Assembly: GCA_021827985.1 (NCBI GenBank)
Contig: JAKATL010000007.1
Coordinates: forward strand, 13,764-77,763
Source: a bacterium
Lineage (GTDB): Bacteria > Chloroflexota > Dormibacteria > Aeolococcales > Bog-877
Length of the DNA: 64,000 nt
Direction: 5' to 3'
Below the pieces are notes generated by a model. That model made no database searches. It had not been told where the DNA came from and saw only the letters and a list, made by a program, of their open reading frames with translations. The position numbers and the translations under genes are program-made. Shown here piece after piece: positions 1,681-64,000 of this stretch; position 1 is the stretch's first letter, and the number at the start of each line of letters is the position of its first letter.

Positions 1681-1712
1681 GGCCCGCCACTCCGACCGTG
1701 GCTGAGCTAGCC

Positions 1713-46607: not shown

Positions 46608-46667
46608 CGTGCCGCACGGCTCCCCGGGTGGACGGTGGGCGGGCTGGCGACGAGACCGGCGCCCGGT

Positions 46668-47084: not shown

Positions 47085-47086
47085 TG

Positions 47087-47464
47087 TCAGACGGCCTCGG
47101 GCGCGGCCTGGGCCGCCTCCACCTGGGCGCGGACCTCGTCCATGTCCAGCTCCTCGACAGCCGCGATGAGCTTCTCCAGCGAGCTGGCCGGCAGCGCCCC
47201 CGGCTGGGCGAACACCAGGATGCCGTCGCGGAAGACCATCAGCGTGGGAATGGAGCGGATCCCCAGCCCCTGCGCCAGCCCCGGCTCGGCCTCGGTGTCG
47301 ACCTTGGCGAACACCATCGAAGGATGCTTCTCCGAGGCCGCCTGGAACACCGGAGCGAAGGCCCGGCAGGGGCCGCACCAGGCCGCCCAGAAGTCGACCA
47401 GGACCATCCCCGGCCCGTTTACCGTCTTCTCGAAATCTGCCTCGCCGAGTGCGGTGGTGGCCAT
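47087..47464 (-). CDS. trxA: thioredoxin
   Basis: The WCGPC active site sits in VLVDFWAAWCGPCRAFAPVF. The fold pattern AKVDTEAEPGLAQGLGIRSIPTLMVF is typical. The start was trimmed to MATTALGE. Confidence 0.85.
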   Translation of the reverse strand: MATTALGEADFEKTVNGPGMVLVDFWAAWCGPCRAFAPVFQAASEKHPSMVFAKVDTEAEPGLAQGLGIRSIPTLMVFRDGILVFAQPGALPASSLEKLIAAVEELDMDEVRAQVEAAQAAPEAV

Positions 47465-47577
47465 GGCTGCCTCGCTATGAATGTACCCCAGTGGGTATGG
47501 CTTGCTGACGCAAGTGTACACCAGACTCGCGTGCCAGTACGAATGGGAGCGGGCTGCGGCGCCCGTCTTGCACCGGG

Positions 47578-48423: not shown

Positions 48424-48473
48424 GCGCCATCGCCATCCGCCGCCCCCGGGGTCGGGCCAGCTCCGCCCCTGGT

Positions 48474-50300: not shown

Positions 50301-50357
50301 GAGCTGGGGCGCCGCTCCCACCTATATTCGAGTATTCGAGCAGTTTGGGCGCGCCGG

Positions 50358-50738
50358 GTGCGGGGCGCGCCGCCCCTCAATCCAGGTGCCCACTTGTCCC
50401 AGGTCCAAGGCCATCCGCGTCGCTGGCTGATCCTCGCCGTGGTCACCGTGGTGGCCTTCATCGGCAACGTCCACGGCACCATCGTGGTGGTCGGGCTGCC
50501 CCGGATCGTCCAGGGGCTGCACACCACCATCACCACCGGCCTCTGGACCCTGACCGGCTACATCATCACCAGTACCGTCTTCCTGCTGCCGGCGGGGCGG
50601 TGATCGGACGTCGTGGGCCGGAAGCGGATCTTCCTGGTCGGTGTGGGGCTGTTCGGCCTGGGCACGGTCCTCTGCGGGTTCGCTCCGTCCGGGGGAGCCC
50701 TGGTGGGTTGGCGCCTGCTGCAGGGGGTAGGGAACTAG
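50358..50738 (+). pseudogene. 5' fragment (~125 aa) of a DHA2-type MFS efflux transporter, frameshifted near 50603 and truncated at the junction with the serine-recombinase element
   Basis: Frame 1 reads RRWLILAVVTVVAFIGNVHGTIVVVGLPRIVQGLHTTITTGLWTLTGYIITSTVFLLPAGR then stops. The family-typical continuation SDVVGRKRIFLVGVGLFGLGTVLCGFAPSGGALVGWRLLQGVG is in the +1 frame (50603-50735). Homology ends abruptly at 50738, where the sequence turns AT-rich. Confidence 0.6.
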
Positions 50739-52582
50739 TCCCCGAGAACATCCCGCAAGAGCCCGTACGTATGTGTTAGTCTGCAGTTGTGAACCTGACT
50801 GAGTGGGCCCGCCGCCAAGGGATCCACCCCCACACCGCGTACCGATGGTTTGAGAGCGGCACCCTGCCGGTGCCGGCGGAGCGGGTGGGGCCGCGCACCA
50901 TCCTGGTGAACGTCGGCGCGGCCAGCGCGCTCCCGGCAGCCGGCCTGGGCCTCTATGCGCGAGTCTCGACCCGTGGGACGCAATCGAGCGGACCCCTGGC
51001 TAGATCCTCGGCCGTGCCCGCCGTCTTCAATTGCTGATTGGGGCAGAGCCAGGACCACCTGGACCTTGCCCCCACCTGCGTCGATGATAACGCGGCGGAC
51101 AAGCAGGCGTACAACTTGGCGCCGTCCGTCGAAGTCAAGTTGGCCGATCCCCTCAGAGACCCGCGCCGTGAAGGCCTCCAGGGATTGCAGCACGGCCGTC
51201 CAGTAGTCGCGGCCGCTGCGCCGGTCCGCCTGTGCCGCAAGGTCAGCTTCCAGACGCCCTAGGTGGTCCTTGAGCTCGGCGAGGCGCTGGCGCAGGTCTG
51301 TCTGGTCGAGCTCACCGTACTGGTAGAGGTCGACCAGCCGCTTCTGCTGGCTCCGCAGCCTGGCCCGGCGCCGCTCCGCCTCCCGTCGTTGCGCAGAATC
51401 CGTGCTGTCGGCCCCCAAGGTATCGATGCGGCGCTGGTACTCCCGCATGAGCGTCCCGGGGTCCTCACGAGCCTCCCGGACTGCGTCCCAGACCGCCTCC
51501 TCAAGACCCTCGGCTCTGACCGCTGGCGTCGGGTAGCGGCAGGCGCGACGATCACCGACGTTGAGCGGGTCAGCGGCACTGCACCGGTAAAGACGTCGCC
51601 CGTGGCTGACTGCCCCGGACATGGCAGCACCGCAGCTGGGGCAACGAACCAGACCGCCCGACAACAGGTAGCTGTGCCGCTTGTTGTTCCTCGGCGAGAA
51701 GCGGAAGTTCTCGGCAAGCTGCTGCCGGGCCCGTTTGAAGGTGGCCTCGTCGATGATCACAGGAACCCTGATAGCGACCCAGTTCTCCGTCGGCTGCACC
51801 TGGCGGACGGTCTTCGGCCGGTTCGATGGAGATGACCCGCCGGCTGATTCTGCCTTCACATAGGCGTTCCGCGCGTACAAGAACCGGCCTGCGTACCCTT
51901 CCTGCCGGAGCATGCGCCCGACCGTCGAGGCTCGCCAGTGGTCACCTCCCGCCGGTGCTGGCAGACCTCGCTCAGTGAGTACTCGGGCGATCTGCCGACA
52001 GGACTGGCGGTCCTCGACCAGCAAGCGGAACATCTCCCGCACCACATCGGCCCGGTCATCATCGATGGTCAGAGTCGCCCGCCTTGATCCGGACCGCGCG
52101 ACGTACCTGAAGCCGTAGGGAACGAAGCCCCCCATCAGGGCTCCCTCCCGCGCCCGAAAGAGCTTGCCTCGGCGCATACGATCTCGGATCACCTTGCCCT
52201 CGAAGTCGGCGAAGTCTCCCAGGATGTTCTCGATGAGCTCCCCTTGCGGGCTCGCGTCCGAAGGGTGCTGCACGAACTCCAAACGTGCTCGGCGCCTGAG
52301 CTCCTTAAGGAGGAGGGCCTGATTGCAGCGGTCCCGCGACAGCCGACCTATCTCGTGGATAACGATCACGTCGACGTCGCCCCGGGCGACTGCGTCGCGT
52401 AGGCGGTCGAGCGCGGGGCGGGCGAGATCGTACCCTGATCGGGCCTCGTCGACGAACTCGGTTGGAGTGTCGTAGCCTTTGCGCTGAGCATAGGTGCGCA
52501 GGGCGTCCAGCTGGCTCTCGACGGTCTCCTCGCGCTCCTGCCTCTCAGAGCTAACTCGGGCGTATAGGGCGACTCGTGTCAT
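50735..52582 (-). mobile_element. large serine recombinase (site-specific integrase/resolvase family) of an integrated element
   Basis: The N-terminal resolvase catalytic domain is MTRVALYARVSSERQ...SQLDALRTYA...DVIVIHEIGRLSRD. A recombinase domain, a zinc ribbon (CPSCGAAMSGAVSHGRRLYRC) and a coiled-coil (LRSQQKRLVDLYQYGELDQTDLRQRLAELKDHLGRLEADL) follow. An AGGGGGGA RBS precedes the ATG. The last ~130 codons are low-complexity and may be read-through. The gene's 3' end abuts the truncated MFS gene. Confidence 0.85.
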
Positions 52583-52915
52583 CGGTGATCCCCCCTGATG
52601 TGGCGGCGGAGTGTAGCGGCTTCTGTTGTGTAGTGGGGGGATACTTCGCGACTTCACCGGCCTGTCGCGGTGGGCGGGCGTGCAAAGCGCCCGGCGGGGC
52701 CTTCTCAGCCTGCAGCGCCAGCTCAACCGCCTGCCGCAGCCGATCATGCGTGTCGGGCACCGGCTCCCAGACGACGACCGTCTGGAGGGGACCGCAGGCA
52801 GTTCGGGGATGCCGTTCTGAACTCACCTCTCAACGATCGGGTGTGGGCACCGCCTCCGCGTGGCGGGGTCGGGCTGCCGGGTCCGCAACGCGCTCCTTGG
52901 AGGCATGACCAGCGG

Positions 52916-53830
52916 ATGCCCAGAAAGCTGAGCGGCGAGGACCTGCATGGCCTTCTGGCGGCTGTCTACGGGCCGCCGCCCTGGGACCTCACGGCTGAGG
53001 GAGTGGCCGCGAAGCTCAGCGCCCTCCGCCAACCCCTGGTCAGCGGCGAGGGTCTGTCGGCGGACATCAAAGAACGGGAGAGGAAGCGGCGGGCGCTGGC
53101 CAAGCCCCCGGCCGTCCGCCGGCCAGCTGAGGACGAGCTAGCCCACGAATGGCTGTCTATACATCGAGAGGCGGCAGCGCAGAAAGCCTTTCGGACGCGC
53201 CTCATCTACCTCGCGCGGTCAGCCGTTCCGGTAGCCGAGGCAAGTGCCGCAGTCGACTTGGCCAGTGCGCCTGGACCCGGGTGGCTGCGGACAGCGCCAG
53301 CCCCGGACGCACCCAGGGGCGGAAGCGCCCCTATCGACCGAGCGGTCGCCCGGCTGATCGAGCGGCACAGACTCCCGCCGACCCGGGCGGCCGCTCGGCG
53401 GCTCAGCCGGCACCTGCTGACCGGCAACCCCGACTGGCTCATAGGCTGGGACCTGAGCATGGCGCTGGTTCGAACCCCCGGCGAGTCTGTGGAGCCCGGG
53501 TACGACTCCCTGACGGTGACGGTGGTCGGGCTCGACGCCTTCGTCACGCGTGAAGACTGGGCGGAGATCTGGGAGCGGGTCGTCGAGCCTCGCCAGACCC
53601 TGTGGCTGGCGGTGCGAGGCCAACCTTCCCCGCGGGGTCCACGAGGAGTGCAGATTGCAGCGCTCGAGGCGACTATGCCACTGTACCGTGCGATTGTCCT
53701 GGATGGCTTGTCGCTACCCCAGGCACGGCAAGCGCTGCAGGAGAAGAGGGGGCGATCCACAGGGATCTCCCCCTCAACCGACTACCGAGGGGTCCGCGCG
53801 CTCCGGCGGCTACTCGAACCCGGCCCGTAG
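52916..53830 (+). CDS. hypothetical protein (304 aa), divergent from the serine recombinase
   Basis: Protein-like composition with no motif I can assign. The start is the internal ATG MPRKLSG; the upstream part of the ORF is Ala/Pro-rich non-protein-like sequence. Possibly an element-encoded regulator or recombination directionality factor. Confidence 0.45.
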   Translation: MPRKLSGEDLHGLLAAVYGPPPWDLTAEGVAAKLSALRQPLVSGEGLSADIKERERKRRALAKPPAVRRPAEDELAHEWLSIHREAAAQKAFRTRLIYLARSAVPVAEASAAVDLASAPGPGWLRTAPAPDAPRGGSAPIDRAVARLIERHRLPPTRAAARRLSRHLLTGNPDWLIGWDLSMALVRTPGESVEPGYDSLTVTVVGLDAFVTREDWAEIWERVVEPRQTLWLAVRGQPSPRGPRGVQIAALEATMPLYRAIVLDGLSLPQARQALQEKRGRSTGISPSTDYRGVRALRRLLEPGP

Positions 53831-53876
53831 TCCCAGCCCTTCGCCCCGGTGATCATGCACCTATCCTGACAGGACC

Positions 53877-54953
53877 ATGGAAGACGATACCGGGGGACGC
53901 CGTCGCAGTTGGTGGGCCATCGTTGGCCCTCTGCCGTCCTCTGAACCTACGGGCTGGCTCACGACACCCCACGACCGTACCCGCGTGCTCGATCGGGAGT
54001 ACGAGGTCGGCCCACTGCGTCTTCGTCCCGGTGGGAAGCGCTTGGTCGAGTACTTGCGCCTGGACCCGCTGGCACTGGAGGGCATAAGGAGGTCCGAGTC
54101 GTGGCCCCTTCTCGTGGAGAGCTCCTGGGAAGATGGTCTGCCCAGGATCTTTGCGAGCGGCCCGGAGGAAGTTCGAGCGGCCAAGCCAACCTGGCCAGCC
54201 ATCGAGCGGCAAGGCAGTGAGGACTTGCACCGGCTCTGCGCGCTCCTTTCCTTGGCGTGGGGTGAGCCCTGGCAGGTCCGAACCTCACCCAAGCCTTCGG
54301 AGCACCTCGACGCCGAGGTGCCGGACTCATGGCCAGCTCCACCCAGATGGCACCAGGACGACGACTTCCCACCCTCGCACCAGGAGGGGCTGCCGGACTG
54401 GATCAGCACGGCCTGGGATCAGGTGGGGACGGACGACCACGTTGCTGCCGCTCTTACCGCCTGGCACCAGGGCCTGCTCCTGACTCCGCAGCACCCCTCG
54501 TTCGCGCACGTGGCCCTCGTAGGCGCGATCGAGGAGTTGAGTCACGCCTCACCATTCGCAGCTATCGTTGACAATGGTCTGCCGGTTCCGTGCCATACCT
54601 GCGACGCGCGACACGATGCCTCCCAGCGCTTCTGGCGGATGGTGAGGCAGGTAGCGGCCGGCGCGGAGGTTGCCGAGCTAAAGGAACTCAACCCTCTGGG
54701 GAAGCGTGGCGCGGCCGCGCATGGAGCGCGGCTCCCTGGCATCGAAACGACGTACGGCTCCGTGGTGCTCCTGGACTGGATACCCCCGAGCCCGGAGGGA
54801 GACCCTCCGAGATTCGAGTTCAATCCGGACGACCCAGCCCAGATCTTCGTCCTCAAAGTGGTGCCCGCCGTGCGTGGGATTGCCCGCCGCCTCCTTCTCA
54901 AGGCCCTCGGCGCACCTGCCAACTCGTTTACCCCGGGCCTCGGAGCGGCCTGA
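53877..54953 (+). CDS. hypothetical protein (358 aa)
   Basis: Protein-like ORF with an AGGACC RBS. It is preceded by the palindrome TCCTGACAGGA, the same motif found upstream of the RHH gene at 58043. No assignable domain. Confidence 0.5.
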   Translation: MEDDTGGRRRSWWAIVGPLPSSEPTGWLTTPHDRTRVLDREYEVGPLRLRPGGKRLVEYLRLDPLALEGIRRSESWPLLVESSWEDGLPRIFASGPEEVRAAKPTWPAIERQGSEDLHRLCALLSLAWGEPWQVRTSPKPSEHLDAEVPDSWPAPPRWHQDDDFPPSHQEGLPDWISTAWDQVGTDDHVAAALTAWHQGLLLTPQHPSFAHVALVGAIEELSHASPFAAIVDNGLPVPCHTCDARHDASQRFWRMVRQVAAGAEVAELKELNPLGKRGAAAHGARLPGIETTYGSVVLLDWIPPSPEGDPPRFEFNPDDPAQIFVLKVVPAVRGIARRLLLKALGAPANSFTPGLGAA

Positions 54954-54994
54954 AGAGGTCATCGTGGGACCGACCGGGTAGTCCACCCAGTCCA

Positions 54995-55130
54995 GCATTC
55001 GTCCACGAGTCCTCCCATTCGTCCAGCCACGAGTCCACGCCGTCCCTGTGCCGTTGCGGGACGACGTTAGGGACGACATCTGAGATCATCCGCAGGACGA
55101 CATACGTGACGACGCCTCCGACGACATGAC
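54995..55130. repeat. intergenic cluster of short direct repeats: 2x CATTCGTCCA..CGAGTCC and at least 5x GACGAC(AT)
   Basis: Seen directly: CATTCGTCCACGAGTCC / CATTCGTCCAGCCACGAGTCCACG, then GGGACGACgttagGGACGACATctgagatcatccgcagGACGACATacgtGACGACgcctccGACGACATgacg. It lies immediately upstream of the 55155 gene. Confidence 0.55.
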
Positions 55131-55154
55131 GTACTGTGGCGGTGCAAGATCATC

Positions 55155-56285
55155 ATGTCGCTTACCGAAACTATCGAAGCCGAACTGCTGCACACCCTGG
55201 AGGGGGGTGGGGAGCCCGGGGAGGTGATCGCTCGGTATTCGGGCTCCAAGGGTCCCCTGTACTCCGCGCTGGCTCGGGCGACCGCAAGGGGTTCGGTGGA
55301 GCTTGCCCGCATCCGGCAGCAGCTTGCCGAGGTCCGAGGCCATCTTGCCCAGGCACAGCGGGACGCCGCCACAGCGGAGTCGAGGGGCCACAAGGCTCAG
55401 GTCGTTGCGGCTGCCGCAGAGGCCCGAACCTCGGAGCTGGCCGAGGCAGTCGCCCACGCCGAACGGGTTCTGCGGCAGGCCGAGGCTCTCCGAGCGCAGG
55501 GTTGCGGTGACGAGACCCTGGCGGCCATCGGAAGGCTTATAGCCGCAGTTGCCGATGGGGACGGGATTCCGCCTGCAGAGGCCGTTACCCGCCTGCTGGA
55601 GGCCGGTGAACACCACGGCCGTCTGGTCGACTTCGAGGCTCAAGCCCTGGCTGTGGAGCGCCGCCTCCAGCGCGCTCAGTCCGAGCTAGCGCGGTTGACG
55701 CCTACGGTCGCAGCCTTGAGGGACGAGCGAGAGGTCATCAAAGCGGGGTTGGCCGCAATCGCCGCCGACGGGACCAGCCAGCTGGCCAGGGCGCAGCAAG
55801 TGGCGGTCACCGCGCTGCAGGAGGCCCAGCGAGCGGCGCAGGGCGCTCTGCAGCAGGCTGGGATGCGGGCTCAGTCCCAAGCCCAGGCGGCCGAGCAGGC
55901 AGCAGAGCGGAGCCTGGCTGGCTACCGACGCCTCACCCGGGAGGCCGCCCTCCTTGAACAGGACGTCACCTTCGCCCGGCTCCTCCGGGATCCGGACGCC
56001 CGCTACTGGCAGGTGGTCGCCCCGTCAAGTTGGCAAGTCGTTATTGCTCGACTGGCCGCCTGGGCCGGTGCCGTGGTCCCCGACCTCCCGGTGCCGATTC
56101 CCGAGCCCGTCAAGGGGGTCGTGGCCGGGAGCGTCAGCTACCCGGCGGTCTACGGACCGCTCCGGGTCCCGCTTCTTGGGCTCATCGCCTGGCTGAGCGA
56201 GGGGATCAAATTGGTGCCCAGTGCGGCCCTCCGGGCGCACCTCGACCGGGTGGCCGACAGCAACTCGCGGGTGGAGTCCGAATAA
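55155..56285 (+). CDS. hypothetical coiled-coil protein (376 aa) with hydrophobic C-terminal region
   Basis: Long Ala/Gln/Arg/Glu-rich heptad-like stretches (about residues 40-290) are followed by a hydrophobic C-terminus (AVVPDLPVPIPEPVKGVVAGSVSYPAVYGPLRVPLLGLIAWL). No catalytic motif. Confidence 0.5.
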   Translation: MSLTETIEAELLHTLEGGGEPGEVIARYSGSKGPLYSALARATARGSVELARIRQQLAEVRGHLAQAQRDAATAESRGHKAQVVAAAAEARTSELAEAVAHAERVLRQAEALRAQGCGDETLAAIGRLIAAVADGDGIPPAEAVTRLLEAGEHHGRLVDFEAQALAVERRLQRAQSELARLTPTVAALRDEREVIKAGLAAIAADGTSQLARAQQVAVTALQEAQRAAQGALQQAGMRAQSQAQAAEQAAERSLAGYRRLTREAALLEQDVTFARLLRDPDARYWQVVAPSSWQVVIARLAAWAGAVVPDLPVPIPEPVKGVVAGSVSYPAVYGPLRVPLLGLIAWLSEGIKLVPSAALRAHLDRVADSNSRVESE

Positions 56286-56360
56286 CTGGCTGAGCGCGAG
56301 CTACCTCGGGAGGTGGAGATGGCTGATGGCGGCCCAGCGCGGGCCGCCATCAGCCCACCA

Positions 56361-57851
56361 TCAACTCACAGGGACAGTGTGCGGTCCCCGCGCGGCCAGG
56401 GCCGGAACCAGGTTCGCGGCGATAGGAGTTCCCAGGCCGGTCACCGGATCCCACCCGGGGCTGGCGCTGTACCCCGGAATCGCGGGATCGGTCTGATTGT
56501 TGCCGATCGTGACGTCGTTGAAGTAGGTGCTGTAGCTGCCGCCAGCGGCGAGTGCATAGAGCGAGTCGTTGATGAGCCCCAAGTTGGTGCCGGCCTTCTG
56601 GTCTGCAAGCGAGACCATCGCCGCGAACTGGGGCGATGCTGCCGAGGTGCCGCAGATCCCGTAATACCCCGGTGTGAAGCCTTGGGCCGAGATGTACACC
56701 CATACGAAGGTTCCGCATGAGGCCTGCCAGGCTACATCTGGAACGCCGCGCATGGTGCCGCTGAAGTTGGATCCAGTGGGCAGGTTGTCCTGATATGGCG
56801 GGCGGGCGAAGATCTGGCTGAAGCCGCCCCCGGATCCCCGCCAGGCCACGTCGTGCTGAGCCGGAGAGACGTTGCAAGCGGAAGGGCCACCGGTAGGCTC
56901 AAGGCTCGACCCCGTGACGGGGTTGGTGCAGAGGTTGGTCCCGCCGACCGCCGTGACCAGCGGATCCGACGCCGGCCATTGGACAGTTGGATAGGGGATG
57001 GTGCTGCCGCCCTGGCCAACCGGAGTCTTGGTGGAGTTGGCGGTACCGCTGTCACCAGCGGCTGCCATGAAGGTGATACCCGCTTCGGTCCCCGTGATGA
57101 AGGCGTGGCGAAGGCTGAGGAGCGACTGTGCGCTCCCGAAGGAGCCCTCAGCGGCAGCGAAGCTCTGGGTCACAACGTTGGCCATGTGGTGGTCCACCAC
57201 GTACTGCTCCGCGTTCATCATGTTGGGGAAGCCCTGCACGCCAAGGGTCTCAGCGGTGGGGACGACCACGAGGAGGATGTTGGCCTCCGGGGCGATCGAG
57301 TGGGCCCACTGGGTGTCCAGCGCCACCTCGCCGACCCACCCGCTGCTCTGCTCCTGGCCGGGGCCGTAGGGATTGCTCTGGGAGCTGCTGGTGGGTGGCT
57401 TGACTTGGCGGTTGCCGAACATCAGCACATGGAAGGTGGGCATGCCCGGCTTGCAGGTGACACCTGGCATTCCACACATGAGAGGGAGCCCGTAGGCTTG
57501 AGAGAAGGTCTCCAGGTCAGAAGCGACTGCCGGGTAACCGAACGAGTCAACGATGGCTATGGTCTCCCCCTGGCCCATCAGTCCAGAGTTGTAGAGAGGG
57601 GTCAGGTCGTACGAGACCTGCATCGAACTGGGGTCGAAAGCCCGCGCTCCGAAGTAGAAGCCTCCCGGAGGAGCCTGGGTGCCTGCCTCAAAGGCTCCTT
57701 GGAACTGGGCGCTAAGTGGCGTCGCCGCCGGATAGGAGATCGGCCTCGCCGCTGCTCCGACCGCGACTCCCGAGGAAGCAGCCACCGCGCCGAACGCCAG
57801 CGCTGCTATCCACGCGCGCCAGCTCCGCAACCGCACGCCAGAGGATTTCAT
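56361..57851 (-). CDS. secreted S53-family (sedolisin/kumamolisin-like) serine peptidase
   Basis: A GGGAGGA RBS is followed by a signal peptide (MKSSGVRLRSWRAWIAALAFGAVAASSGVAVGAAA), a pro-domain-like region, the catalytic domain (VDHHMANVVTQSF, AAGDSGT) and the nucleophile motif GYYGICGTSAASPQFAAMVSL (SGTSAAxP type). Confidence 0.75.
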   Translation of the reverse strand: MKSSGVRLRSWRAWIAALAFGAVAASSGVAVGAAARPISYPAATPLSAQFQGAFEAGTQAPPGGFYFGARAFDPSSMQVSYDLTPLYNSGLMGQGETIAIVDSFGYPAVASDLETFSQAYGLPLMCGMPGVTCKPGMPTFHVLMFGNRQVKPPTSSSQSNPYGPGQEQSSGWVGEVALDTQWAHSIAPEANILLVVVPTAETLGVQGFPNMMNAEQYVVDHHMANVVTQSFAAAEGSFGSAQSLLSLRHAFITGTEAGITFMAAAGDSGTANSTKTPVGQGGSTIPYPTVQWPASDPLVTAVGGTNLCTNPVTGSSLEPTGGPSACNVSPAQHDVAWRGSGGGFSQIFARPPYQDNLPTGSNFSGTMRGVPDVAWQASCGTFVWVYISAQGFTPGYYGICGTSAASPQFAAMVSLADQKAGTNLGLINDSLYALAAGGSYSTYFNDVTIGNNQTDPAIPGYSASPGWDPVTGLGTPIAANLVPALAARGPHTVPVS

Positions 57852-58086
57852 GCCACGTCCTCCCTTGCTACTCACCTAGCCAGCGAACGCATCGCCGCCT
57901 CCGACGACATCCTACTCCTCAGTTCCCGCGCCGTCGGCCGGGCACAAGTCCAACTCTGCCGGATCTCCCCTGTAGTTAGGCTCGCCTGTGATCAGGTCCA
58001 GGGTGGCAGAACCTACACCTCTTGACGATGGCGTCCAATCGTCCTATCCTACAGGACGCTAGTCCTACACTACAGAGGAGGTCGTC

Positions 58087-58476
58087 ATGGGCGTGATCAA
58101 GAAGACCGTGGTCCTCGATGACCGCATCGAGAGGTTCGTACGCCGGACTCAGGCGCTGATGCTGGAGGCCGAGCCCCCCATCGAAGCGACGTACTCCTCT
58201 GCCCTGAACTTCATGCTCCTGGCGGCCATCCATGAGGCCTCCCGTCCGGGCGGCCTGTCAGCCGAGACCCGGGAAGTCATCTGGGACTTCGCGCGCGACA
58301 ACGACACCCTGGAGGAGCTGAACCTGCACGAGCGGATGGGAGCGGTCCGTGCCGCCCTACTGCTCGGCGAAGGCGTTGAACACCCCCACGCCAGGCAGCC
58401 TCCAGCCAATCCATCTCCTGAGGCGCCGGATGGCGAGTCCGACACGTCGGCTCCCCACCCGACGGCGGCCGAATGA
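58087..58476 (+). CDS. ribbon-helix-helix (CopG/Arc/MetJ-like) domain protein with acidic/Pro-rich tail
   Basis: The N-terminal beta-strand-helix-helix pattern is KKTVVLDDRIERFVRRTQALMLEAEPPIEATYSSALNFMLLAAI. A GAGGAGG RBS precedes it, and upstream lies the palindrome GTCCTATCCTACAGGAC. Confidence 0.55.
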   Translation: MGVIKKTVVLDDRIERFVRRTQALMLEAEPPIEATYSSALNFMLLAAIHEASRPGGLSAETREVIWDFARDNDTLEELNLHERMGAVRAALLLGEGVEHPHARQPPANPSPEAPDGESDTSAPHPTAAE

Positions 58477-58636
58477 ACCCGGCTGGCATCCTGCAGGGGG
58501 TCGCTCCTCTCTGCAGCCACCTCGGCTGGGGGGCAGGGGCACCGGGGCGGCCCTGTGCCCGGGCCGACGAGGCGCTGCCGGGAGCGGCTTCCGTGTGCAT
58601 GCAGGCCGGGCTCGATGGGCTGCAGATGGCGCGGCC

Positions 58637-59272
58637 ATGCTAGCCGCTGTTCGGCGAGCCTGCGGGTGCATGGTCCTCTTCTTGGCCGTGGGCGCGGCGT
58701 TGGGCGTGGCTATCGCCGCCTACCCGTACGTCGCCCCCCAGGTCCCCCGGGCCGCCTCAGCCGTTTCTCATGGGGTGAGCGAACTTCGCTCCCTGGTGTA
58801 TGGGCTCCAGCGGGTAGGGCCGCCAGCCCACCTTCCGGCGACCCCCGCACCGCTACCATCAACGGCGGCGACACCGGCCAAACCGACGTGGACCCGGCCC
58901 AGCTCGGATAGCTGCCAGTGGGGGATCTCCCTTCTGGCCCAGGACCACGCCCTCGACGTGAGGGCAGCCCGAGAGTACCCCGCCTGGCAGACCTGGTACG
59001 ACACTACTGCCGGTTGGTGGGCAGGGGCCGAAGTGGATCTGGAGGGTCTGTGCGGTCAGGCGGCTGCGCCCAGCCGTGCCAGCTGCCAGGCCGACCTGTC
59101 CCACTTCAGCGAGGCGGAGCAGAACCACGAGGCCGCGGCGGCTGGCACGGAACCGAGTTCGATGCCCGGTACGACGACCCAGGATCGGACATGGAACTTG
59201 GAGTGGGCCGCAGACTACCGGCGGCTCTTCGGCATCTTCGCCATCACCGGCTGCGGTGGCGTGGGCGGATGA
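58637..59272 (+). CDS. hypothetical membrane-anchored/secreted protein
   Basis: An N-terminal TM/signal anchor (CMVLFLAVGAALGVAIAAYPYVA) is followed by a Cys-containing extracellular region. No assignable domain. Confidence 0.4.
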   Translation: MLAAVRRACGCMVLFLAVGAALGVAIAAYPYVAPQVPRAASAVSHGVSELRSLVYGLQRVGPPAHLPATPAPLPSTAATPAKPTWTRPSSDSCQWGISLLAQDHALDVRAAREYPAWQTWYDTTAGWWAGAEVDLEGLCGQAAAPSRASCQADLSHFSEAEQNHEAAAAGTEPSSMPGTTTQDRTWNLEWAADYRRLFGIFAITGCGGVGG

Positions 59273-59624
59273 CGACGCGAGGGGCCTCCAAGCGGGGCAG
59301 GCCTTGGCACGGGGCCGCCCCAATGGGGAGGGAGGCCCCGTAGGCAACGTGCTGCCGCCCTGCCGAGCCACGGATCGAGGTTTGGATCGCCGGCTGCTGG
59401 CGCCTGTTGTCCGTGCTGCCGGCGACCCACTGCGGCATCCCGTGAGTCGCCGCCACCTGGGAGAGCCGCAAAGAGAGACGGCCAGGCGCCGGACGCGATC
59501 AGCTGCCGGGAGGACCCGGCTCCCCGGTGGCTCCCCAGCGCCCCCCCTGCTCTGCGACCAGCTCGACAGTCGCCCAAGGGTTGGGCCTTCCGATCAGAGG
59601 GGAGATGGGCGGGTGCAGGAGAGA

Positions 59625-59682
59625 GGTGTCCTGATCCGGTGTCCTGATGAACCGCTGACGCTCCCCTGACCGGTGTCCTGAC
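59625..59682. repeat. three direct copies of GGTGTCCTGA(T/C) (iteron-like) upstream of the 59715 gene
   Basis: GGTGTCCTGAT occurs at 59625 and 59638, and GGTGTCCTGAC at 59672. Additional CTGAC repeats lie between, and a CTACTGTAG palindrome sits at 59696. Confidence 0.5.
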
Positions 59683-59714
59683 GCCGACCTTAGAAGCTAC
59701 TGTAGGAAGGAGCG

Positions 59715-60086
59715 ATGGCCCGATCTGTCCGCTTGCTGAAGGACGGCCAAGCCCCGCACCGGGAGCCTCAGTCGCGGGCGCGCCATCGTGCAGAGCACGT
59801 GACGGTCGGGGTGATGGTGACCATCGAGGAGCGGGACGCTCTCGCGGCCCGAGCCGCCGCTGCCGGCATCTCGATGGGCGCCCTGCTTCGAGGGGATCCG
59901 GCTGCCCGGGACGCCGAGCTGCAGATCCTCCGGGAGCGAAGTCGTCGCGCAGGGCTGGCCGAGGGGCGGCGGGAGCGTGAGGCCGACGTGGCGGCGCTGC
60001 GAGAGAAGCTTGCCTCGATTGCATCCACGGGCGACGCTCGGGCCAACTCCGTGGCTGCAGCGTGGAGAGCCTTGCAGTGGAGATAG
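59715..60086 (+). CDS. MobC/RHH-like small DNA-binding protein (hypothetical)
   Basis: VTVGVMVTIEERDALAARAAAAGISMGALLRG resembles the MobC/ribbon-helix-helix pattern (strand, then helix ending in a basic residue). An Arg/Glu-rich helical tail follows. No relaxase lies downstream. Confidence 0.4.
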   Translation: MARSVRLLKDGQAPHREPQSRARHRAEHVTVGVMVTIEERDALAARAAAAGISMGALLRGDPAARDAELQILRERSRRAGLAEGRREREADVAALREKLASIASTGDARANSVAAAWRALQWR

Positions 60087-60344
60087 AAGCGCTCAGCGAA
60101 CTCAGAGCTGTGGTCGAGGCACGGGTACCTCTCGCGGTCTACCGAACCGATCCGGCCCAGCTACCCGGAGAACTTCGACGCGCGCCTCCAAGACCGGCTC
60201 AACCGGATCCCGCCACCGCTAGGTGGTTGGCCACCCGCCTGAGGGCGCAAGCCCTGGCCAGCTTGGCGACCTGCCGCCCCATCACAAGGGGTCCCCTGTG
60301 ATCACTCCACCACTTCGAGCGGCGATGCGTTGATCGCACGAGCT

Positions 60345-60974
60345 TCAAGTCCGGTGCAAGGCTTCCCAGCCCAATAGGCCACCAAAGCCCACCAGCCCTA
60401 TACCGGAAGCTACGTCGACCGCCCTGGCTGTCCGGGGTCCGATGCGCCGCCGAGTGAGGCTTCCCACGGCTGAGAGCAGGGAGAACCAGCCTAGGCTGCC
60501 GAGTCCGACACCCACCACCAACCCCGCCGCGTCGAGGGGCGTCCGGGCAGGGGCAGCAGCGGAGGCCGCCGTGAACAGCGCGGCCCAAGACAGAATCGTG
60601 AGCGGGTTCGATGCGGTTGCGATCAGGGCAGTGCGAACCGCCCGACCCAGATGCCTCACCTCCTCCTCTGTCTCCAAGCCCTGTCTCACTCGCGCGGCGG
60701 ACCACACCGTGCGAACGCCCAGGGCAATCAAGAAGGCGGCCCCAGCTACACCGAGGGAGACCTGAAGCCCGGGCAGGGCGCGGAGTGCGGAGGCCGCGCC
60801 GACGGCGCCGAGAGCCGCATACGTCATGTCGATCGTGGCCGCCCCAACCCCGATCGCCAGTCCGGCCACGAACCCGCTCCGAAGTGCGCTTCGGGCGCAC
60901 AGGAGCCAGATCGGACCCACCTGAGCGGCAACCAGGGCTCCGAACCCAAGGCCGCCCAGGAAGGCTGCCGCCAT
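60345..60974 (-). CDS. LysE/RhtB-family amino-acid exporter
   Basis: MAAAFLGGLGFGALVAAQVGPIWLL is the typical LysE N-terminus. The topology is six TM segments. Confidence 0.8.
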   Translation of the reverse strand: MAAAFLGGLGFGALVAAQVGPIWLLCARSALRSGFVAGLAIGVGAATIDMTYAALGAVGAASALRALPGLQVSLGVAGAAFLIALGVRTVWSAARVRQGLETEEEVRHLGRAVRTALIATASNPLTILSWAALFTAASAAAPARTPLDAAGLVVGVGLGSLGWFSLLSAVGSLTRRRIGPRTARAVDVASGIGLVGFGGLLGWEALHRT

Positions 60975-60976
60975 CG

Positions 60977-61162
60977 CTACCCCAGTGCCTCGATCGTCAG
61001 CGCGAGCCGCTTCGGAGAACCGAGCCTAGCATGGGCCGCCTTCTGCAGGTAGAGGGTCCCGACGACGGGGCTACCGGGGTGGTCCGGTGGCTGGCCCGTC
61101 TCGTCCTCGGCGAACCGGATGGTGTTCTTGGTCTCCCGCTCCAGGGTGAGGTGGATTTCCAT
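60977..61162 (-). CDS. small hypothetical protein (61 aa) in operon with LysE-family exporter
   Basis: MEIHLTLERETKNTIRFAEDETGQPPDHPGSPVVGTLYLQKAAHARLGSPKRLALTIEALG has protein-like composition. Its stop overlaps the LysE start. The longer listed ORF upstream is non-protein-like. Confidence 0.4.
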   Translation of the reverse strand: MEIHLTLERETKNTIRFAEDETGQPPDHPGSPVVGTLYLQKAAHARLGSPKRLALTIEALG

Positions 61163-61554
61163 GATGCCTCCCGAACTCGGCCAGGCAGGGTGGGGGCCCG
61201 TTTGCCCTCTCCGAAATGGGGGTCTGGCCGGACCCCGGTTCCGCTGTGTACAGTAGCCGCCATGACCATCTCCGGAAGGGCTCCCTTTCCAGTGCCCCCG
61301 GGCCATCATTGGGGCGACGGAGCCCAGACCAATAGCGCCAGCCTCCGGCAGCGCGGCAGAGCGCTGATGACCGGGTTCCCTGGGGCCGGCGTGGTGCGGG
61401 TGTGCTGGGTGGCTGTTGGCCGCAGATAGCCGGCCGATGGCAATCCGGCAGCGGCCCAGGGCACCGGCTGCGGAGGCCTTGAGGAGCACGGGAGCGGAGC
61501 CTTTGGCTCCCACTGGATCATCGCGACTTGAGAGCCGCATTTGCCGCCCGCCCG

Positions 61555-64000
61555 ATGCGTGAGGACGGATCCGGCCCGACGAGTCTTGCCGATGGCAGCT
61601 TCGATGAACTTGTCCAGCTGGCAGCAGGACATTCGCCATATCCGTACCAGCGGCGGCTCGCCAAGGGAGGGCTGCCCGAACTCTTGCAGATCCCCACTGG
61701 TGCAGGCAAGACCCTCGCCGCCACGCTTCCCTGGTTGTACCGTCGACGATTCCATCCCGACCCTGAGGTCCGGGCCGGGACACCCCACTGGCTGATCTTC
61801 GTGCTCCCCATGCGGGTGCTGGTGGAGCAAACGCGGGACATGATCGGCCGGTGGCTGCAGAACGCGGGGCTTGCGGACGAAGTCGGCCTTCACGTGGTGA
61901 TGGGCGGAGAGGGACGACTGGAGAGTGCGTGGCGCCGGGCCCCGGAGCAGGACGCGATCTTCGTGGGGACCCTGGACATGCTGCTTTCCCGGGCGTTGAA
62001 TCGGGGCTACGCCGCGAGCCGGTTCGCCTGGCCGATTGACTTCGGGCTGTTCAACTCCGGGTGCCAATGGGTATTCGACGAGGTCCAGCTCATGGGCCCT
62101 GCACTGCCGACATCGCGCCAACTTGAGGGGCTTCGGCGCGCGCTTGGCACCGCCGTCGCCTGCCGCTCCATGTGGATGTCGGCCACCGTCAACAAACGCC
62201 GGTTATCCACCGTCGATCTTCCAGAGGTCGGAACTGGTCTCGAACTCGGATCGGCAGACTGGGCTGGTCCTTTGGCTAGGCGCCTCAACGCCCCGAAGGC
62301 TGTACGGCAGCTCGCTCTCGACAGCGGTGCGGCGGGCTACGGCCGCAGTCTGGCGACAGCGCTGCGTGAGCACCACCGACCCGGGACGCTGACCATCGCC
62401 ATCGTCAACACCGTGGAGCGAGCGCAAGCCGTCTGGCGCGAGCTTACCAAGGGGCCAGGCGTGGACGATGTCGAGGTTGTCCTCCTCCACTCACGCTTCC
62501 GAGCGCCAGATCGAGCGACCCAAGCTGCGGCTGCTCTGCGGCCAATCGATCCGTCGGGCCCTGGACGTCTGGTGATCTCCACGCAGGTACTCGAAGCCGG
62601 GGTCGACATCTCGGCCACCACTTTGTTCACCGAAGCCGCGTCCTGGCCATCGATTGTGCAGCGCGCCGGGCGGTGCAACCGCGACGGAGACAGCCCCGGG
62701 GCCGTCCTTCTGTGGGCTCAACCTCCGTCTTTCCAGCCCTATGAGGCGGACGATGTCGACCACGCCGCAGCCGAACTCATCTCACTGGAAGGGACCGCCG
62801 TTACCGCCGGCGACCTCGTCCAACGGACAGTGGAGGTTGTCGAGCCGGTCCATCCGGTTCTCCGGCTCCCAGACCTGGTTGGGCTGTTCGACACGACGCC
62901 CGACCTGACAGGTAACGATCTCGATGTGGGTCGCTACATCCGTGAGGGGGGCGACCTGGACGTGCAGATAGCGTGGCGGGCCGGGCTCCAGGTCAACGCC
63001 CCGCCCGCTGAAGCCCGTCCCACACGCGATGAGCTGTGCCCGGTCCCCATAGGCCAGGTCCGGTCGTGGCTTAAGGTGCCACGGGGGGCGGCGTCTCCGG
63101 TGTTGGCCTGGAGGTTCGACCAACTCGGCGCGGAGTGGGTGCGTTGCAAGGCTGAGGAGGTCCGCCCCGGCCATGTGCTGTTGGTGCCCGCGGAGGTCGG
63201 CGGCTATGATCCCTTCTCGGGCTGGGACCCCAAGTCGACCGCTCCGACCACCGTTCTGCCTGAAGTGGAAGCGTCGCCCATCGCCCAGGCGGAGGAGGCG
63301 ACCGCCGACGATCCGTGCACTTTCGCCCCCGGTGTGTGGGTCAGCCTGAGGGATCATCTGGAGCAAGCGGAACGCGCGCTCCGCGTAATAGCGGCGGCGT
63401 ACCCACTACCGCCCCACCTGGTCGAGGCTGCGGCCAACGCAGCCCGGTTCCATGACCTCGGCAAGGCACATCCCAGCTTTCAGGGGTTCCTCTTGAGTTC
63501 CATCCGCTCACCGGCGGAATCACCGCCAGCCGGCGGTCCCTGGGCGAAGTCGGCAGGTCGGGGCCGAGGCAACCATCAGCGCCGATTCTTCCGACATGAG
63601 TTGGCATCGGCCCTCGCGCTGCTGGCCAACCCGGAATCCCTTGAGGCGGTGCCCGATCCCGACTTGGTGGTGTACCTGGTTGCCGCCCACCACGGGCGAG
63701 TTCGCATTGCCATCCGCTCCCAACCTGGCGAGATGCCACCTGCTGGTGACCCTGATCGGCGCGTGGCCATGGGGATCTGGGACGGCGAGCCACTGCCCGC
63801 CGCCGAAGTTCCTGGGACGACATTCCCGTCCGTGTCGCTCAGCCTCGGCTCTATGGAACTTGGGGACGGTCCGGATGGAGCACCGTCTTGGACATCTCGG
63901 ATGATGGCACTCCGGGATCGGTCGGATATCGGCCCCTTCCGGCTGGGATTCCTGGAGGCTCTGGTGCGCCTTGCCGACTGGAGAGTCAGCGCCGATGACC
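61555..64000 (+). CDS. cas3: Cas3-like superfamily-2 helicase with C-terminal HD nuclease domain (helicase then HD order, type I-G/I-U-like); partial, continues past the window end
   Basis: Helicase motifs: I LQIPTGAGKTLAA, II FDEVQLMG, III SATV, V/VI ISTQVLEAGVDISATTLF...SIVQRAGRCNRDG. The C-terminal HD domain shows DHLEQAER, FHDLGKAHPSFQ, FFRHELASALALL, VAAHHGRV and LVRLADWRVS (the H, HDxGK..FQ, RHE, HHG, AD series typical of Cas3 HD). The frame is open from ATG 61555 to nt 64000, which is why it is not in the supplied ORF track. Confidence 0.75.
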   Translation, partial: MREDGSGPTSLADGSFDELVQLAAGHSPYPYQRRLAKGGLPELLQIPTGAGKTLAATLPWLYRRRFHPDPEVRAGTPHWLIFVLPMRVLVEQTRDMIGRWLQNAGLADEVGLHVVMGGEGRLESAWRRAPEQDAIFVGTLDMLLSRALNRGYAASRFAWPIDFGLFNSGCQWVFDEVQLMGPALPTSRQLEGLRRALGTAVACRSMWMSATVNKRRLSTVDLPEVGTGLELGSADWAGPLARRLNAPKAVRQLALDSGAAGYGRSLATALREHHRPGTLTIAIVNTVERAQAVWRELTKGPGVDDVEVVLLHSRFRAPDRATQAAAALRPIDPSGPGRLVISTQVLEAGVDISATTLFTEAASWPSIVQRAGRCNRDGDSPGAVLLWAQPPSFQPYEADDVDHAAAELISLEGTAVTAGDLVQRTVEVVEPVHPVLRLPDLVGLFDTTPDLTGNDLDVGRYIREGGDLDVQIAWRAGLQVNAPPAEARPTRDELCPVPIGQVRSWLKVPRGAASPVLAWRFDQLGAEWVRCKAEEVRPGHVLLVPAEVGGYDPFSGWDPKSTAPTTVLPEVEASPIAQAEEATADDPCTFAPGVWVSLRDHLEQAERALRVIAAAYPLPPHLVEAAANAARFHDLGKAHPSFQGFLLSSIRSPAESPPAGGPWAKSAGRGRGNHQRRFFRHELASALALLANPESLEAVPDPDLVVYLVAAHHGRVRIAIRSQPGEMPPAGDPDRRVAMGIWDGEPLPAAEVPGTTFPSVSLSLGSMELGDGPDGAPSWTSRMMALRDRSDIGPFRLGFLEALVRLADWRVSADD

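What the first reader, a model, noticed from the sequence alone, without database searches (positions are those of the whole stretch)
61555..64000. Unlisted >800-codon gene at the window edge: Cas3-like helicase with the HD nuclease at the C-terminus
Translating frame 1 from ATG 61555 gives one uninterrupted reading frame to the end of the window (>815 aa). The ORF track omits it because it has no stop inside the window. It carries SF2 helicase motifs (PTGAGKT, DEVQ, SAT, QRAGRCNR). Behind the helicase it carries the full HD nuclease motif series characteristic of Cas3 (HDLGKAHPSFQ, RHE, HHG, LADW). HD-after-helicase is the arrangement of type I-G (formerly I-U) Cas3, and cas3 is the first gene of such loci, so further cas genes and/or an array may lie just beyond nt 64000. 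The second motif is DEVQ rather than the usual DExH, and no cas neighbours are visible here. It could alone be a stand-alone Cas3-like defence or repair nuclease-helicase carried on the adjacent island.
Basis: partly seen in the sequence, partly recalled or inferred. Interest (0 to 1): 0.75.

Follow-up and report, generated by a model that had tools for sequence, protein, structure and literature searches.

The report
Ordinary type I-G CRISPR cas3 gene

Summary
The gene ends 5 codons past the window, giving 820 aa.

The protein scores 770 bits on NCBIfam TIGR02621 (type I-G Cas3g, cutoff 400) and 874 bits on PADLOC Cas3g. The HD domain lies after the helicase.

An ENA contig (L001) is 100% identical to window 51528-64000 and runs 9.4 kb further. 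It carries cas8g/csx17, csb1/cas7g, csb2 (cas5-6), a cas4-cas1 fusion and cas2, all above curated cutoffs. A CRISPR array of four exact 36-nt repeats follows.

The "odd" DEVQ is not decay. DExQ is invariant in 81/81 Cas3g proteins from bacteria and archaea, and the HD catalytic residues are intact.

Extras:
- The array is short. Close relatives have at least 20 repeats, and this one abuts an IS3 element.
- No protospacers were found.
- The region from window ~50732 onward is an acquired island. It has a large serine integrase at its left edge and is inserted inside an MFS transporter gene. Relatives show the intact empty site. The host is related to Candidatus Dormibacteria.

This is a textbook system that any annotation pipeline would call. 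Interest is low.

The parts
61555..64000 (+). cas3g coding sequence (type I-G helicase/endonuclease). It is 820 aa from ATG 61555 and continues 17 nt past the window, with its stop at extrapolated 64015-64017.
   Evidence: Open frame. TIGR02621 769.8 bits against a cutoff of 400. PADLOC Cas3g 874 bits over profile 2-728/733. 820/820 identical to P0259 and 100% identical to P0001.
61528..61530 (+). Alternative in-frame TTG start (829-aa product, used by one gene caller).
   Evidence: Two of ten cluster members are called at 829 aa and eight at 820 aa.
61681..62199 (+). RecA1 lobe of the SF2 helicase (Pfam DEAD, aa 43-215). Holds motif I PTGAGKT (61693-61713), motif II DEVQ (62077-62088) and motif III SAT (62179-62187).
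   Evidence: K, D-E-x-Q and S-A-T are invariant in 81 Cas3g sequences.
62389..62685 (+). RecA2 lobe (Pfam Cas3-like_C_2 / Helicase_C, aa 279-377) with motif VI QRAGRCNR (62659-62682).
   Evidence: PF22590, 83 bits. Q-R-x-G-R invariant.
62686..63336 (+). Linker / accessory region between helicase and HD (aa ~378-594). Covered by the Cas3g-specific profiles but not by generic domain models.
   Evidence: The best TIGR02621 stretch is aa 15-580, and PADLOC PDLC01770 spans aa 15-814. The region contains many invariant residues.
63337..63993 (+). C-terminal HD nuclease domain (aa 594-813). Metal-ligand positions: H601 (63355-63357), H633-D634 (63451-63456), H681 (63595-63597), H712-H713 (63688-63693), D808 (63976-63978).
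   Evidence: Cas3_HD PF18019, aa 622-716. TIGR01596 48.5 bits against 43.45, aa 598-717. PADLOC Cas3 HD, aa 594-813. Each position is conserved in 76-80 of 81 sequences, and the exceptions are gaps.
61163..61554 (+). Non-coding stretch upstream of cas3g, the presumed promoter region of the cas operon.
   Evidence: Gene calls. No sigma-70-like promoter or intrinsic terminator was detected, and the scan does not cover non-canonical promoters.
50735..52747 (-). Large serine recombinase (integrase) at the left edge of the acquired island that contains cas3g.
   Evidence: Resolvase + Recombinase + Zn_ribbon_recom. PHROG integrase, E 1.6e-99.
50367..50732 (+). Stranded 5' fragment (about 122 codons of 505) of a DHA2-type MFS transporter gene, cut by the island. 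It has an in-frame TGA in place of a Trp codon. The left island junction is at ~50731-50733.
   Evidence: 97.5% identical to the first 125 aa of the intact gene in the empty-site relative L088. The nucleotide alignment loses identity at this point.
52916..61162 (.). Island cargo between the integrase and cas3g. Three unknown proteins (304, 358 and 376 aa), a subtilase-like protein (56361-57851, -), small unknowns, a borderline NikA-like protein (59715-60086, +) and a LysE exporter (60345-60974, -).
   Evidence: Gene calls. Pfam and PHROGs scans. Lower GC (0.66-0.70 against 0.70-0.74) and lower GC3.

Best explanation
The ORF is cas3g, the helicase-nuclease of a complete type I-G (formerly I-U) CRISPR-Cas system. 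It is the first gene of a tightly packed operon: cas3g, cas8g/csx17, csb1(cas7g), csb2(cas5-cas6 fusion), cas4-cas1, cas2, then a leader and a CRISPR array. The 4-nt and 1-nt gene overlaps suggest translational coupling.

Inferred mechanism, by homology with the characterised Thioalkalivibrio sulfidiphilus and Geobacter systems:
1. The array is transcribed from the cas2-proximal leader.
2. The Cas6 domain of Csb2 cuts each 36-nt repeat 4 nt 3' of the 7-bp hairpin. This leaves an 8-nt 5' handle, ATTGAAGG.
3. Cas7g, Csb2 and Cas8g assemble on the crRNA, with Cas3g bound as an integral subunit.
4. When the complex forms an R-loop on a PAM-flanked target, the C-terminal HD domain nicks and degrades the displaced strand. 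The SF2 motor (Walker A K52, motif II D175-E176-x-Q178) translocates and extends the damage.
5. Cas4-Cas1 and Cas2 add new spacers.

What is shown: the identity, domain order and intact catalytic residues of Cas3g, the presence and order of all partner genes, and the array. What is inferred: activity and every mechanistic step.

The locus sits on a horizontally acquired island whose left end, next to a large serine integrase, interrupts an MFS transporter gene. The array is unusually short and ends at an IS3 element.
For: - Family and architecture: TIGR02621 at 769.8 bits against a cutoff of 400. PADLOC Cas3g at 874 bits, nearly end to end. Pfam DEAD, Cas3-like_C_2 and Cas3_HD in that order.
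- Catalytic residues: motifs I, II, III and VI and the five HD motif positions are invariant or nearly so across 34 close and 81 diverse Cas3g sequences, and all are present here.
- Same DNA: L001 positions 1-12473 equal window 51528-64000 at 100% identity with no gaps.
- Partner genes in L001, scores against curated cutoffs: Csx17/Cas8g 511/150, Csb1/Cas7g 75.9/38, Csb2 139/45, Cas4g-Cas1g 731/560, Cas2 27.4/24.5.
- Array: four exact 36-nt repeats with spacers of 36, 36 and 38 nt. The repeat folds into a 7-bp hairpin at -13.2 kcal/mol, followed by 12 nt. That matches the geometry reported for T. sulfidiphilus (PMC9638904).
- Operon order is conserved in most of 80 genome loci from many phyla.
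- Literature: a C-terminal HD is the I-G hallmark, and Cas3 is an integral Cascade subunit (PMC10482374).
- Island: the synteny break inside the MFS gene, the serine integrase, the composition shift, and the same cassette in ICE-like and housekeeping contexts in relatives.
Against: - Nothing contradicts the identification.
- Present-day activity is less secure. The array has only 3-4 spacers, against at least 19 in close relatives, and it is followed at spacer distance by an IS3 with no target-site duplication.
- A 99.83%-identical strain differs only by an internal spacer, which fits loss better than leader-end acquisition.
- No protospacer was found for any spacer, so neither the targets nor the PAM could be checked.
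- No promoter was detected upstream.
- The downstream genes are read from a different assembly of identical sequence, not from the window itself.
- The right end of the island was not found.
Confidence: 0.95

Rival explanations
1. The locus is a decaying remnant. The genes look intact, but the system is no longer providing immunity, because IS activity removed most of the array and perhaps its regulation.
For: - The array has 4 repeats, against at least 20 in relatives with a near-identical repeat.
- An IS3 begins 39 nt after the last repeat, exactly where a fifth repeat is expected. It has no target-site duplication, and an IS607 fragment lies beyond it.
- The only spacer difference between two strains is internal, which looks like loss.
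- No protospacer matches were found.
Against: - All six cas ORFs are full length, match their profiles end to end, and pass curated cutoffs.
- All catalytic residues are intact.
- All four repeats are exact copies and the leader is present.
- Three to four spacers are enough for function.
- The lack of protospacer hits is expected for an uncultured soil lineage when only exact matches can be scanned.
Confidence: 0.15
2. A stand-alone Cas3-like repair or defence helicase-nuclease that is not part of a CRISPR-Cas system.
For: No cas neighbour and no repeat copy is visible inside the window itself.
Against: - The identical-sequence contig carries the full I-G operon, starting 4 nt before the cas3g stop, and an array.
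- The protein scores 770 bits on the I-G-specific model, but only 35.7 bits against a cutoff of 850 on the ligase-associated DEXH helicase model.
- 72 of 80 relatives have csx17 immediately downstream. Most of the exceptions lie at contig ends.
Confidence: 0.01
3. A Cas3 of another type I subtype (for example I-E, I-C or I-B) with a rearranged domain order.
For: Weaker hits to the generic cas3_core model and to PADLOC Cas3e/Cas3b/Cas3c models, restricted to the RecA2 region.
Against: - Those hits fall far below their cutoffs or cover only about 100 residues. Examples are TIGR01587 at 91 bits against 102, and NF007248 at 44 against 569.
- The partner genes are all the I-G-specific families: Csx17, Csb1, Csb2 and the Cas4g/Cas1g fusion.
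Confidence: 0.01

Closest known systems
Type I-G (formerly I-U) Cas3g, NCBIfam TIGR02621 (cas3_GSU0051). The characterised example is Thioalkalivibrio sulfidiphilus HL-EbGr7 Cas3 (PMC9638904, PMC10482374).
   Same: - The SF2 helicase comes first and the HD nuclease is C-terminal.
- The catalytic positions occur in the same order as T. sulfidiphilus K39, D164 and D625: Walker A Lys (K52 here), motif II Asp (D175) and HD Asp (D634).
- The partner set is the same: Cas8g/Csx17, Cas7g, the Csb2 Cas5-Cas6 fusion, the Cas4-Cas1 fusion and Cas2.
- The repeat is 36 nt, with a hairpin followed by 4 + 8 nt.
   Different: - Gene order and content are simpler here. The operon is contiguous, cas3 first and the adaptation genes directly after csb2. 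The T. sulfidiphilus locus has five extra genes (toxin-antitoxins and an xpf-like gene) between csb2 and cas4-cas1.
- The array here is very short and abuts an IS3.
- The host is an uncultured relative of Candidatus Dormibacteria.
Closest database relatives: Cas3g of Candidatus Dormibacteraeota / Dormibacteria MAGs (P0003 and P0251, named 'type I-G CRISPR-associated helicase/endonuclease Cas3g' by NCBI).
   Same: 83-87% identical over the full length. The operon is the same and the CRISPR repeat is near-identical, with 3 differences in 36 nt.
   Different: - Genomic context differs. One relative sits beside a tyrosine integrase and type IV secretion genes, and another sits among housekeeping genes.
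- Their arrays have at least 20 repeats.
Canonical Cas3 of types I-E and I-C (for example Thermobifida fusca Cas3, motif II DEVH).
   Same: An SF2 helicase plus an HD nuclease, with the same set of helicase and HD motifs.
   Different: - The HD domain is N-terminal in those enzymes and C-terminal here (PMC10482374).
- Motif II ends in His there (own knowledge of DExH-box Cas3 enzymes) but in an invariant Gln in Cas3g.
- Those enzymes are recruited in trans, whereas the I-G Cas3 is reported to be an integral Cascade subunit.

Membership tests
Type I-G Cas3g (TIGR02621) | Whole-protein score above the curated family cutoff | tested here: met
   769.8 bits against a cutoff of 400. PADLOC Cas3g PDLC01770 at 874 bits, covering profile 2-728/733.
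Type I-G Cas3g (TIGR02621) | SF2 helicase core with motifs I, II, III and VI intact | tested here: met
   GxGKT, DExQ, SAT and QRxGR are present. These positions are invariant in 81 family members.
Type I-G Cas3g (TIGR02621) | HD nuclease domain located C-terminal to the helicase, not N-terminal | tested here: met
   DEAD at aa 43-215 and RecA2 at aa 279-377. Cas3_HD at aa 622-716, TIGR01596 at aa 598-717, PADLOC HD model at aa 594-813. The literature criterion is in PMC10482374.
Type I-G Cas3g (TIGR02621) | HD metal-ligand residues (H, HD, H, HH, D) intact | tested here: met
   H601, H633-D634, H681, H712-H713 and D808 are present and conserved in 76-80 of 81 sequences. The remaining sequences have gaps at those columns.
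Type I-G CRISPR-Cas system | Effector genes cas8g/csx17, csb1/cas7g and csb2 (cas5-cas6 fusion) adjacent, with no cas11 | tested here: met
   L001 12487-17135. TIGR04113 511/150, TIGR02570 75.9/38, TIGR02165 139/45. L001 is identical to the window over 12.5 kb.
Type I-G CRISPR-Cas system | Adaptation module with a Cas4-Cas1 fusion, plus Cas2 | tested here: met
   NF049935 cas4g_cas1g at 730.8 against 560. TIGR01573 cas2 at 27.4 against 24.5.
Type I-G CRISPR-Cas system | CRISPR array with a ~36-nt hairpin repeat whose 3' tail allows an 8-nt 5' handle after a cut 4 nt past the stem | tested here: met
   Four exact 36-nt repeats at L001 19295-19548. The hairpin spans nt 5-24, followed by CTCC + ATTGAAGG. 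The criterion comes from PMC9638904. Only the sequence geometry was tested; the actual cleavage site was not.
Type I-G CRISPR-Cas system | TTN PAM next to protospacers | tested here: inconclusive
   No protospacer was found for any of the five spacer sequences in IMG/VR (exact match only), in the window, or in the fetched loci.
Type I-G CRISPR-Cas system | Cas3 stably bound to Cascade, with ATP-dependent helicase and metal-dependent nuclease activity and crRNA-guided interference | not testable with these tools
   Requires biochemistry or in vivo assays.

The most novel reading that the evidence does not exclude
The whole type I-G cassette is cargo of a mobile island that a large serine integrase inserted into an MFS transporter gene of a Dormibacteria-like soil bacterium. 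The same cassette (83% identical Cas3g, near-identical repeat) also rides an ICE-like element with type IV secretion genes in a related lineage, and sits among housekeeping genes in another. On this reading the system spreads horizontally within this poorly known phylum as a unit, and IS elements erode its array after arrival.

A second, smaller point: the motif II glutamine (DExQ in place of DExH) is universal in Cas3g. I found no paper pairing 'DExQ' with Cas3. It might relate to the reported dispensability of Cas3g helicase activity for immunity.
Probability: 0.5. Interest if true: 0.25.

Novelty: already known. Interest (0 to 1): 0.12.

Why it matters
It matters little beyond correct annotation. 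The gene was missed only because the mechanical ORF list drops ORFs that run off the window. Standard profiles identify it at once as the Cas3g of a complete type I-G system.

Three points have modest value:
- It documents an intact I-G system in a relative of Candidatus Dormibacteria, an uncultured soil lineage.
- It gives a clean example of a CRISPR-Cas cassette on a serine-integrase island with a mapped insertion site, and with different contexts in close relatives.
- It shows that the DExQ variant of helicase motif II is a family-wide signature of Cas3g and should not be read as degeneracy. That could help anyone judging Cas3g genes by eye or designing helicase-dead mutants.

Tried and rejected
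- Exact search of the last 102 nt of the window in the representative-genome collection found no match, so the source genome is not among the GTDB representatives.
- Exact search of the CRISPR repeat in JGI metagenome contigs found no match.
- Exact searches of spacers S1-S3, the extra L090 spacer and the 38 nt after the last repeat in IMG/VR all returned zero. A fuzzy search allowing up to 8 mismatches in the window and in all fetched loci found no self-targets or other hits.
- Tandem Repeats Finder suggested that spacers 2 and 3 resemble each other. A global alignment gave a score of about 1, so I rejected this as chance.
- No CRISPR array or repeat copy lies inside the window, and there are no tRNA genes to mark an integration site.
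- The PDB sequence search found no solved Cas3g. There were only weak matches to the RecA2 lobe of other Cas3 helicases. I ran no structure prediction, because the sequence evidence was already decisive.
- I tried to find the right end of the island through the missing 3' part of the MFS gene. Only intact homologues from other genomes came back. The 85-kb NCBI contig listed for P0259 was not returned by the contig look-up.
- Most island cargo proteins have no Pfam or PHROG hit, so the element type (prophage, ICE or other) could not be decided.
- The promoter and terminator scan upstream of cas3g found nothing.
- A literature search for 'DEXQ' with 'Cas3' found nothing.
Full report
**1. The observation**

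Translating window 61555-64000 in frame 1 gives 815 codons without a stop. The mechanical ORF list for this region does not include it, because ORFs that run off the source are not listed. Positions use ATG-61555 numbering:
- PTGAGKT, aa 47-53.
- DEVQ, aa 175-178.
- SAT, aa 209-211.
- QRAGRCNR, aa 369-376.
- HDLGKAHPSFQ, aa 633-643.
- RHE, aa 680-682.
- HHG, aa 712-714.
- LADW, aa 806-809.

The window is 70% GC, and long spurious ORFs are common on every frame. ORF length alone is therefore weak evidence, and the profile results below decide the matter. The frame is open from 61483. The only candidate starts are TTG 61528 and ATG 61555, and neither has an obvious ribosome-binding site. Eight of the ten members of the protein's 90% cluster are called as 820 aa, which corresponds to the ATG.

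**2. What the protein is**

NCBIfam places it in TIGR02621, 'type I-G CRISPR-associated helicase/endonuclease Cas3g', at 769.8 bits against a curated cutoff of 400. The generic Cas3 HD model TIGR01596 also passes (48.5 against 43.45). Models for other subtypes and for the ligase-associated DEXH helicase fall far below their cutoffs.

PADLOC's Cas3g model matches at 874 bits over profile positions 2-728 of 733, so the protein is essentially complete within the window. Pfam gives DEAD (aa 43-215), Cas3-like_C_2/Helicase_C (aa 279-377) and Cas3_HD (aa 622-716), in that order. The HD domain therefore follows the helicase. The literature describes this as the distinguishing feature of type I-G Cas3 (PMC10482374). 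No Cas3g has a solved structure detectable by sequence. The best PDB match covers only the RecA2 lobe of another Cas3 helicase, at E 2.9e-9.

**3. Beyond the window edge**

A search of the large protein database returned P0001, which is 100% identical over the whole query and 829 aa long. Its C-terminus shows that only five residues (HASHP) lie past nt 64000. P0259, at 820 aa, is identical from the ATG onward.

The ENA contig that encodes P0001 (L001) is 100% identical to window 51528-64000 over 12,473 nt, with no mismatch or gap. It continues for 9.4 kb. I therefore treat it as the continuation of the window. The caveat is that it comes from a different assembly.

Downstream of cas3g, with 4-nt or 1-nt overlaps between successive genes, lie the following (scores are against curated cutoffs):
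- Csx17/Cas8g: TIGR04113, 511 against 150.
- Csb1/Cas7g: TIGR02570, 75.9 against 38.
- Csb2, the Cas5-Cas6 fusion: TIGR02165, 139 against 45.
- A Cas4g-Cas1g fusion: NF049935, 731 against 560.
- Cas2: TIGR01573, 27.4 against 24.5.

A 211-nt leader follows cas2. After it come four exact copies of a 36-nt repeat, GTCTCCACGGCTGCAACGCCGTGGCTCCATTGAAGG, separated by spacers of 36, 36 and 38 nt. This is a complete type I-G locus.

**4. The DEVQ question**

In an alignment of 34 relatives at 51-87% identity, D, E and Q of this motif are invariant. I then fetched 80 loci from named genomes across many phyla: Actinomycetota, Planctomycetota, Acidobacteriota, Myxococcota, Desulfobacterota, Chloroflexota, and several archaeal groups including Methanotrichaceae, Thermoplasmata and Nitrosopumilaceae. 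Identity ran down to about 34%. Across all 81 sequences, motif II reads D-E-x-Q, with Q in 81 of 81.

So DExQ is the family's normal form of motif II and not a sign of decay. The same alignment shows the Walker A lysine, SAT and QRxGR to be invariant. The HD positions H601, H633-D634, H681, H712-H713 and D808 are conserved in every sequence that is not gapped there. A full-text search found no paper that pairs 'DEXQ' with Cas3. The searchable library is incomplete, so I report this only as an observation.

**5. How it most likely works**

Everything in this section is inferred by homology. The work on the Thioalkalivibrio sulfidiphilus system shows four things (PMC9638904; PMC10482374):
- Csb2's C-terminal Cas6 domain cuts the 36-nt repeat 4 nt 3' of the hairpin base, which leaves an 8-nt 5' handle.
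- Cas7, Csb2 and Cas8g assemble on the crRNA.
- Cas3 is a stable subunit of the complex even without target DNA.
- K39 (Walker A), D164 (Walker B) and D625 (HD domain) were the residues chosen to inactivate the helicase and the nuclease. Helicase activity was not essential for immunity in vivo.

The repeat here folds into a 7-bp hairpin spanning nt 5-24 (-13.2 kcal/mol), followed by CTCC and then ATTGAAGG. That is exactly the reported geometry, so the predicted handle is ATTGAAGG. The equivalent catalytic residues here are K52, D175 and D634. A TTN PAM is reported for the subtype (cited). I could not test it, because no protospacer was found.

**6. State of the array**

Close relatives (83% identical Cas3g) carry at least 20 repeats of a near-identical sequence (3 differences in 36 nt). 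Their degenerate copies lie at the end far from cas2, which confirms that the leader is cas2-proximal.

Here the array stops after four repeats. Thirty-nine nt after the last repeat, where a fifth would be expected, an IS3-family element begins. Its terminal inverted repeats lie at L001 19588-19626 and 21389-21427, with TG...CA ends, and its transposase genes are confirmed. The flanks (GGT and GAG) show no target-site duplication, and the DNA beyond is an IS607 transposase fragment. This fits an IS-mediated deletion of the distal array, but that remains an inference.

A second assembly of the same locus (L090, 99.83% identical) has one extra spacer at the second position and is otherwise the same. 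An internal difference fits loss by repeat-repeat recombination better than new acquisition. None of the five spacer sequences has an exact match in IMG/VR or a match with up to 8 mismatches in the window or the fetched loci. The exact repeat is also absent from JGI metagenome contigs. The cas genes are intact, but current activity is unproven. I give the 'decaying remnant' rival about 0.15.

**7. Context: an acquired island**

Window 1-50300 is ordinary chromosome. It encodes glutamate synthase, an ammonium transporter, acetyl-CoA synthetase, histidine and lysine/arginine-type biosynthesis genes, signalling proteins and an S9 peptidase. From about 50.7 kb onward, GC drops from 0.70-0.74 to 0.66-0.70, and GC3 drops from 0.85-0.89 to 0.72-0.80.

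Between the peptidase and a large serine recombinase (50735-52747, minus strand) lies the 5' part of a DHA2-type MFS transporter gene with an in-frame TGA. Relatives with an 83-89% identical peptidase have an intact 493-505-aa MFS gene at this position. Nucleotide synteny at 86-91% identity runs up to window 50731-50732 and then stops, at about codon 125 of 505. The TGA replaces a Trp codon of the intact gene.

The island therefore starts at about 50732, next to the integrase, inside the MFS gene. Between the integrase and cas3g lie several unannotatable genes, a subtilase-like protein, a borderline NikA-like protein and a LysE exporter.

The same cas cassette sits next to a tyrosine integrase and type IV secretion genes in one relative, and among housekeeping genes in another, so it moves. 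The island's right end was not found: L001 ends in IS debris, and the search for the missing MFS 3' part returned only intact homologues from other genomes. The nearest named relatives of both the Cas3g and the flanking genes are Candidatus Dormibacteria / Dormibacteraeota MAGs.

**8. Comparison and verdict**

Every defining feature of type I-G that sequence can test is met: the family score, domain order, catalytic residues, the Csx17/Csb1/Csb2 effector set, the Cas4-Cas1 fusion, Cas2 and the repeat geometry. The PAM could not be assessed, and biochemical activity cannot be tested here.

The operon order is the common one. Of the 80 genome loci, 72 have csx17, 67 csb1 and 63 csb2 directly downstream, and most of the gaps are at contig ends. 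Public pipelines already name 85%-identical proteins 'type I-G CRISPR-associated helicase/endonuclease Cas3g'.

It is also ordinary: a known system that was missed only because the ORF lister drops ORFs that run off the window. I rate the novelty as already known and the interest at 0.12. The modest extras are the island insertion site, the IS-truncated array and the family-wide DExQ signature.

Noticed in passing
window 50367-50735: A DHA2-type MFS transporter gene is cut at about codon 125 of 505 by the insertion of an island whose first gene is a large serine integrase. The stranded 5' fragment has a TGG-to-TGA nonsense change. Relatives (L088, L089) show the intact empty site.
   Followed up: yes
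L001 19549-21856 (extrapolated window ~71076-73383): An IS3-family element begins 39 nt after the last CRISPR repeat. It is about 1.84 kb, with 39-nt imperfect terminal inverted repeats, orfA/orfB and an extra 115-aa ORF. It has no target-site duplication, and an IS607 transposase fragment follows. This suggests an IS-mediated truncation of the array.
   Followed up: partly
L090 19340-19412, compared with L001 19367: A 99.83%-identical strain from another sample carries one additional spacer (ACCATCCCAGGCCGTCCGGCCAACCTGGGGAACGCCC) at the second position of the array. The difference is internal, so it fits loss in the window's strain better than new acquisition.
   Followed up: partly
L082/L083 1-9977, compared with L084-L086 1-8993: The same I-G cassette (83% identical Cas3g) lies next to a tyrosine integrase and conjugation genes (a VirD4/TraG-like coupling protein, a VirB4-like ATPase and a CHAP hydrolase) in one relative. 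In another it lies next to housekeeping genes (ThyX, thiolase, transglycosylase). The cassette is horizontally mobile.
   Followed up: partly
window 9270-45329: In the closest empty-site relative (L088), the regions matching window 4861-9270 and 45329-50731 are only about 450 nt apart. About 36 kb of housekeeping genes (GGDEF proteins, acs, gltBD, amt, his and lysine-pathway genes) therefore sit between them here but not there. This is a large rearrangement or indel between related genomes.
   Followed up: no
window 62077-62088 and 80 genome loci (L002-L081): Helicase motif II is D-E-x-Q, with Q (not the DExH histidine) in 81 of 81 Cas3g proteins from bacteria and archaea. A full-text search found no paper that pairs 'DExQ' with Cas3.
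   Followed up: partly
window 52916-56285 and 58087-59272: Six island ORFs (304, 358, 376, 129, 56 and 225 aa) have no Pfam or PHROG match at all. Their function, and the type of mobile element, remain unknown.
   Followed up: partly
window 10801-15375: Two adjacent large signalling proteins: one with GAF, HD-GYP-like (HD_5) and GGDEF domains, and one with PAS, PAS and GGDEF domains. This is an ordinary cyclic-di-GMP module, unrelated to the finding.
   Followed up: no
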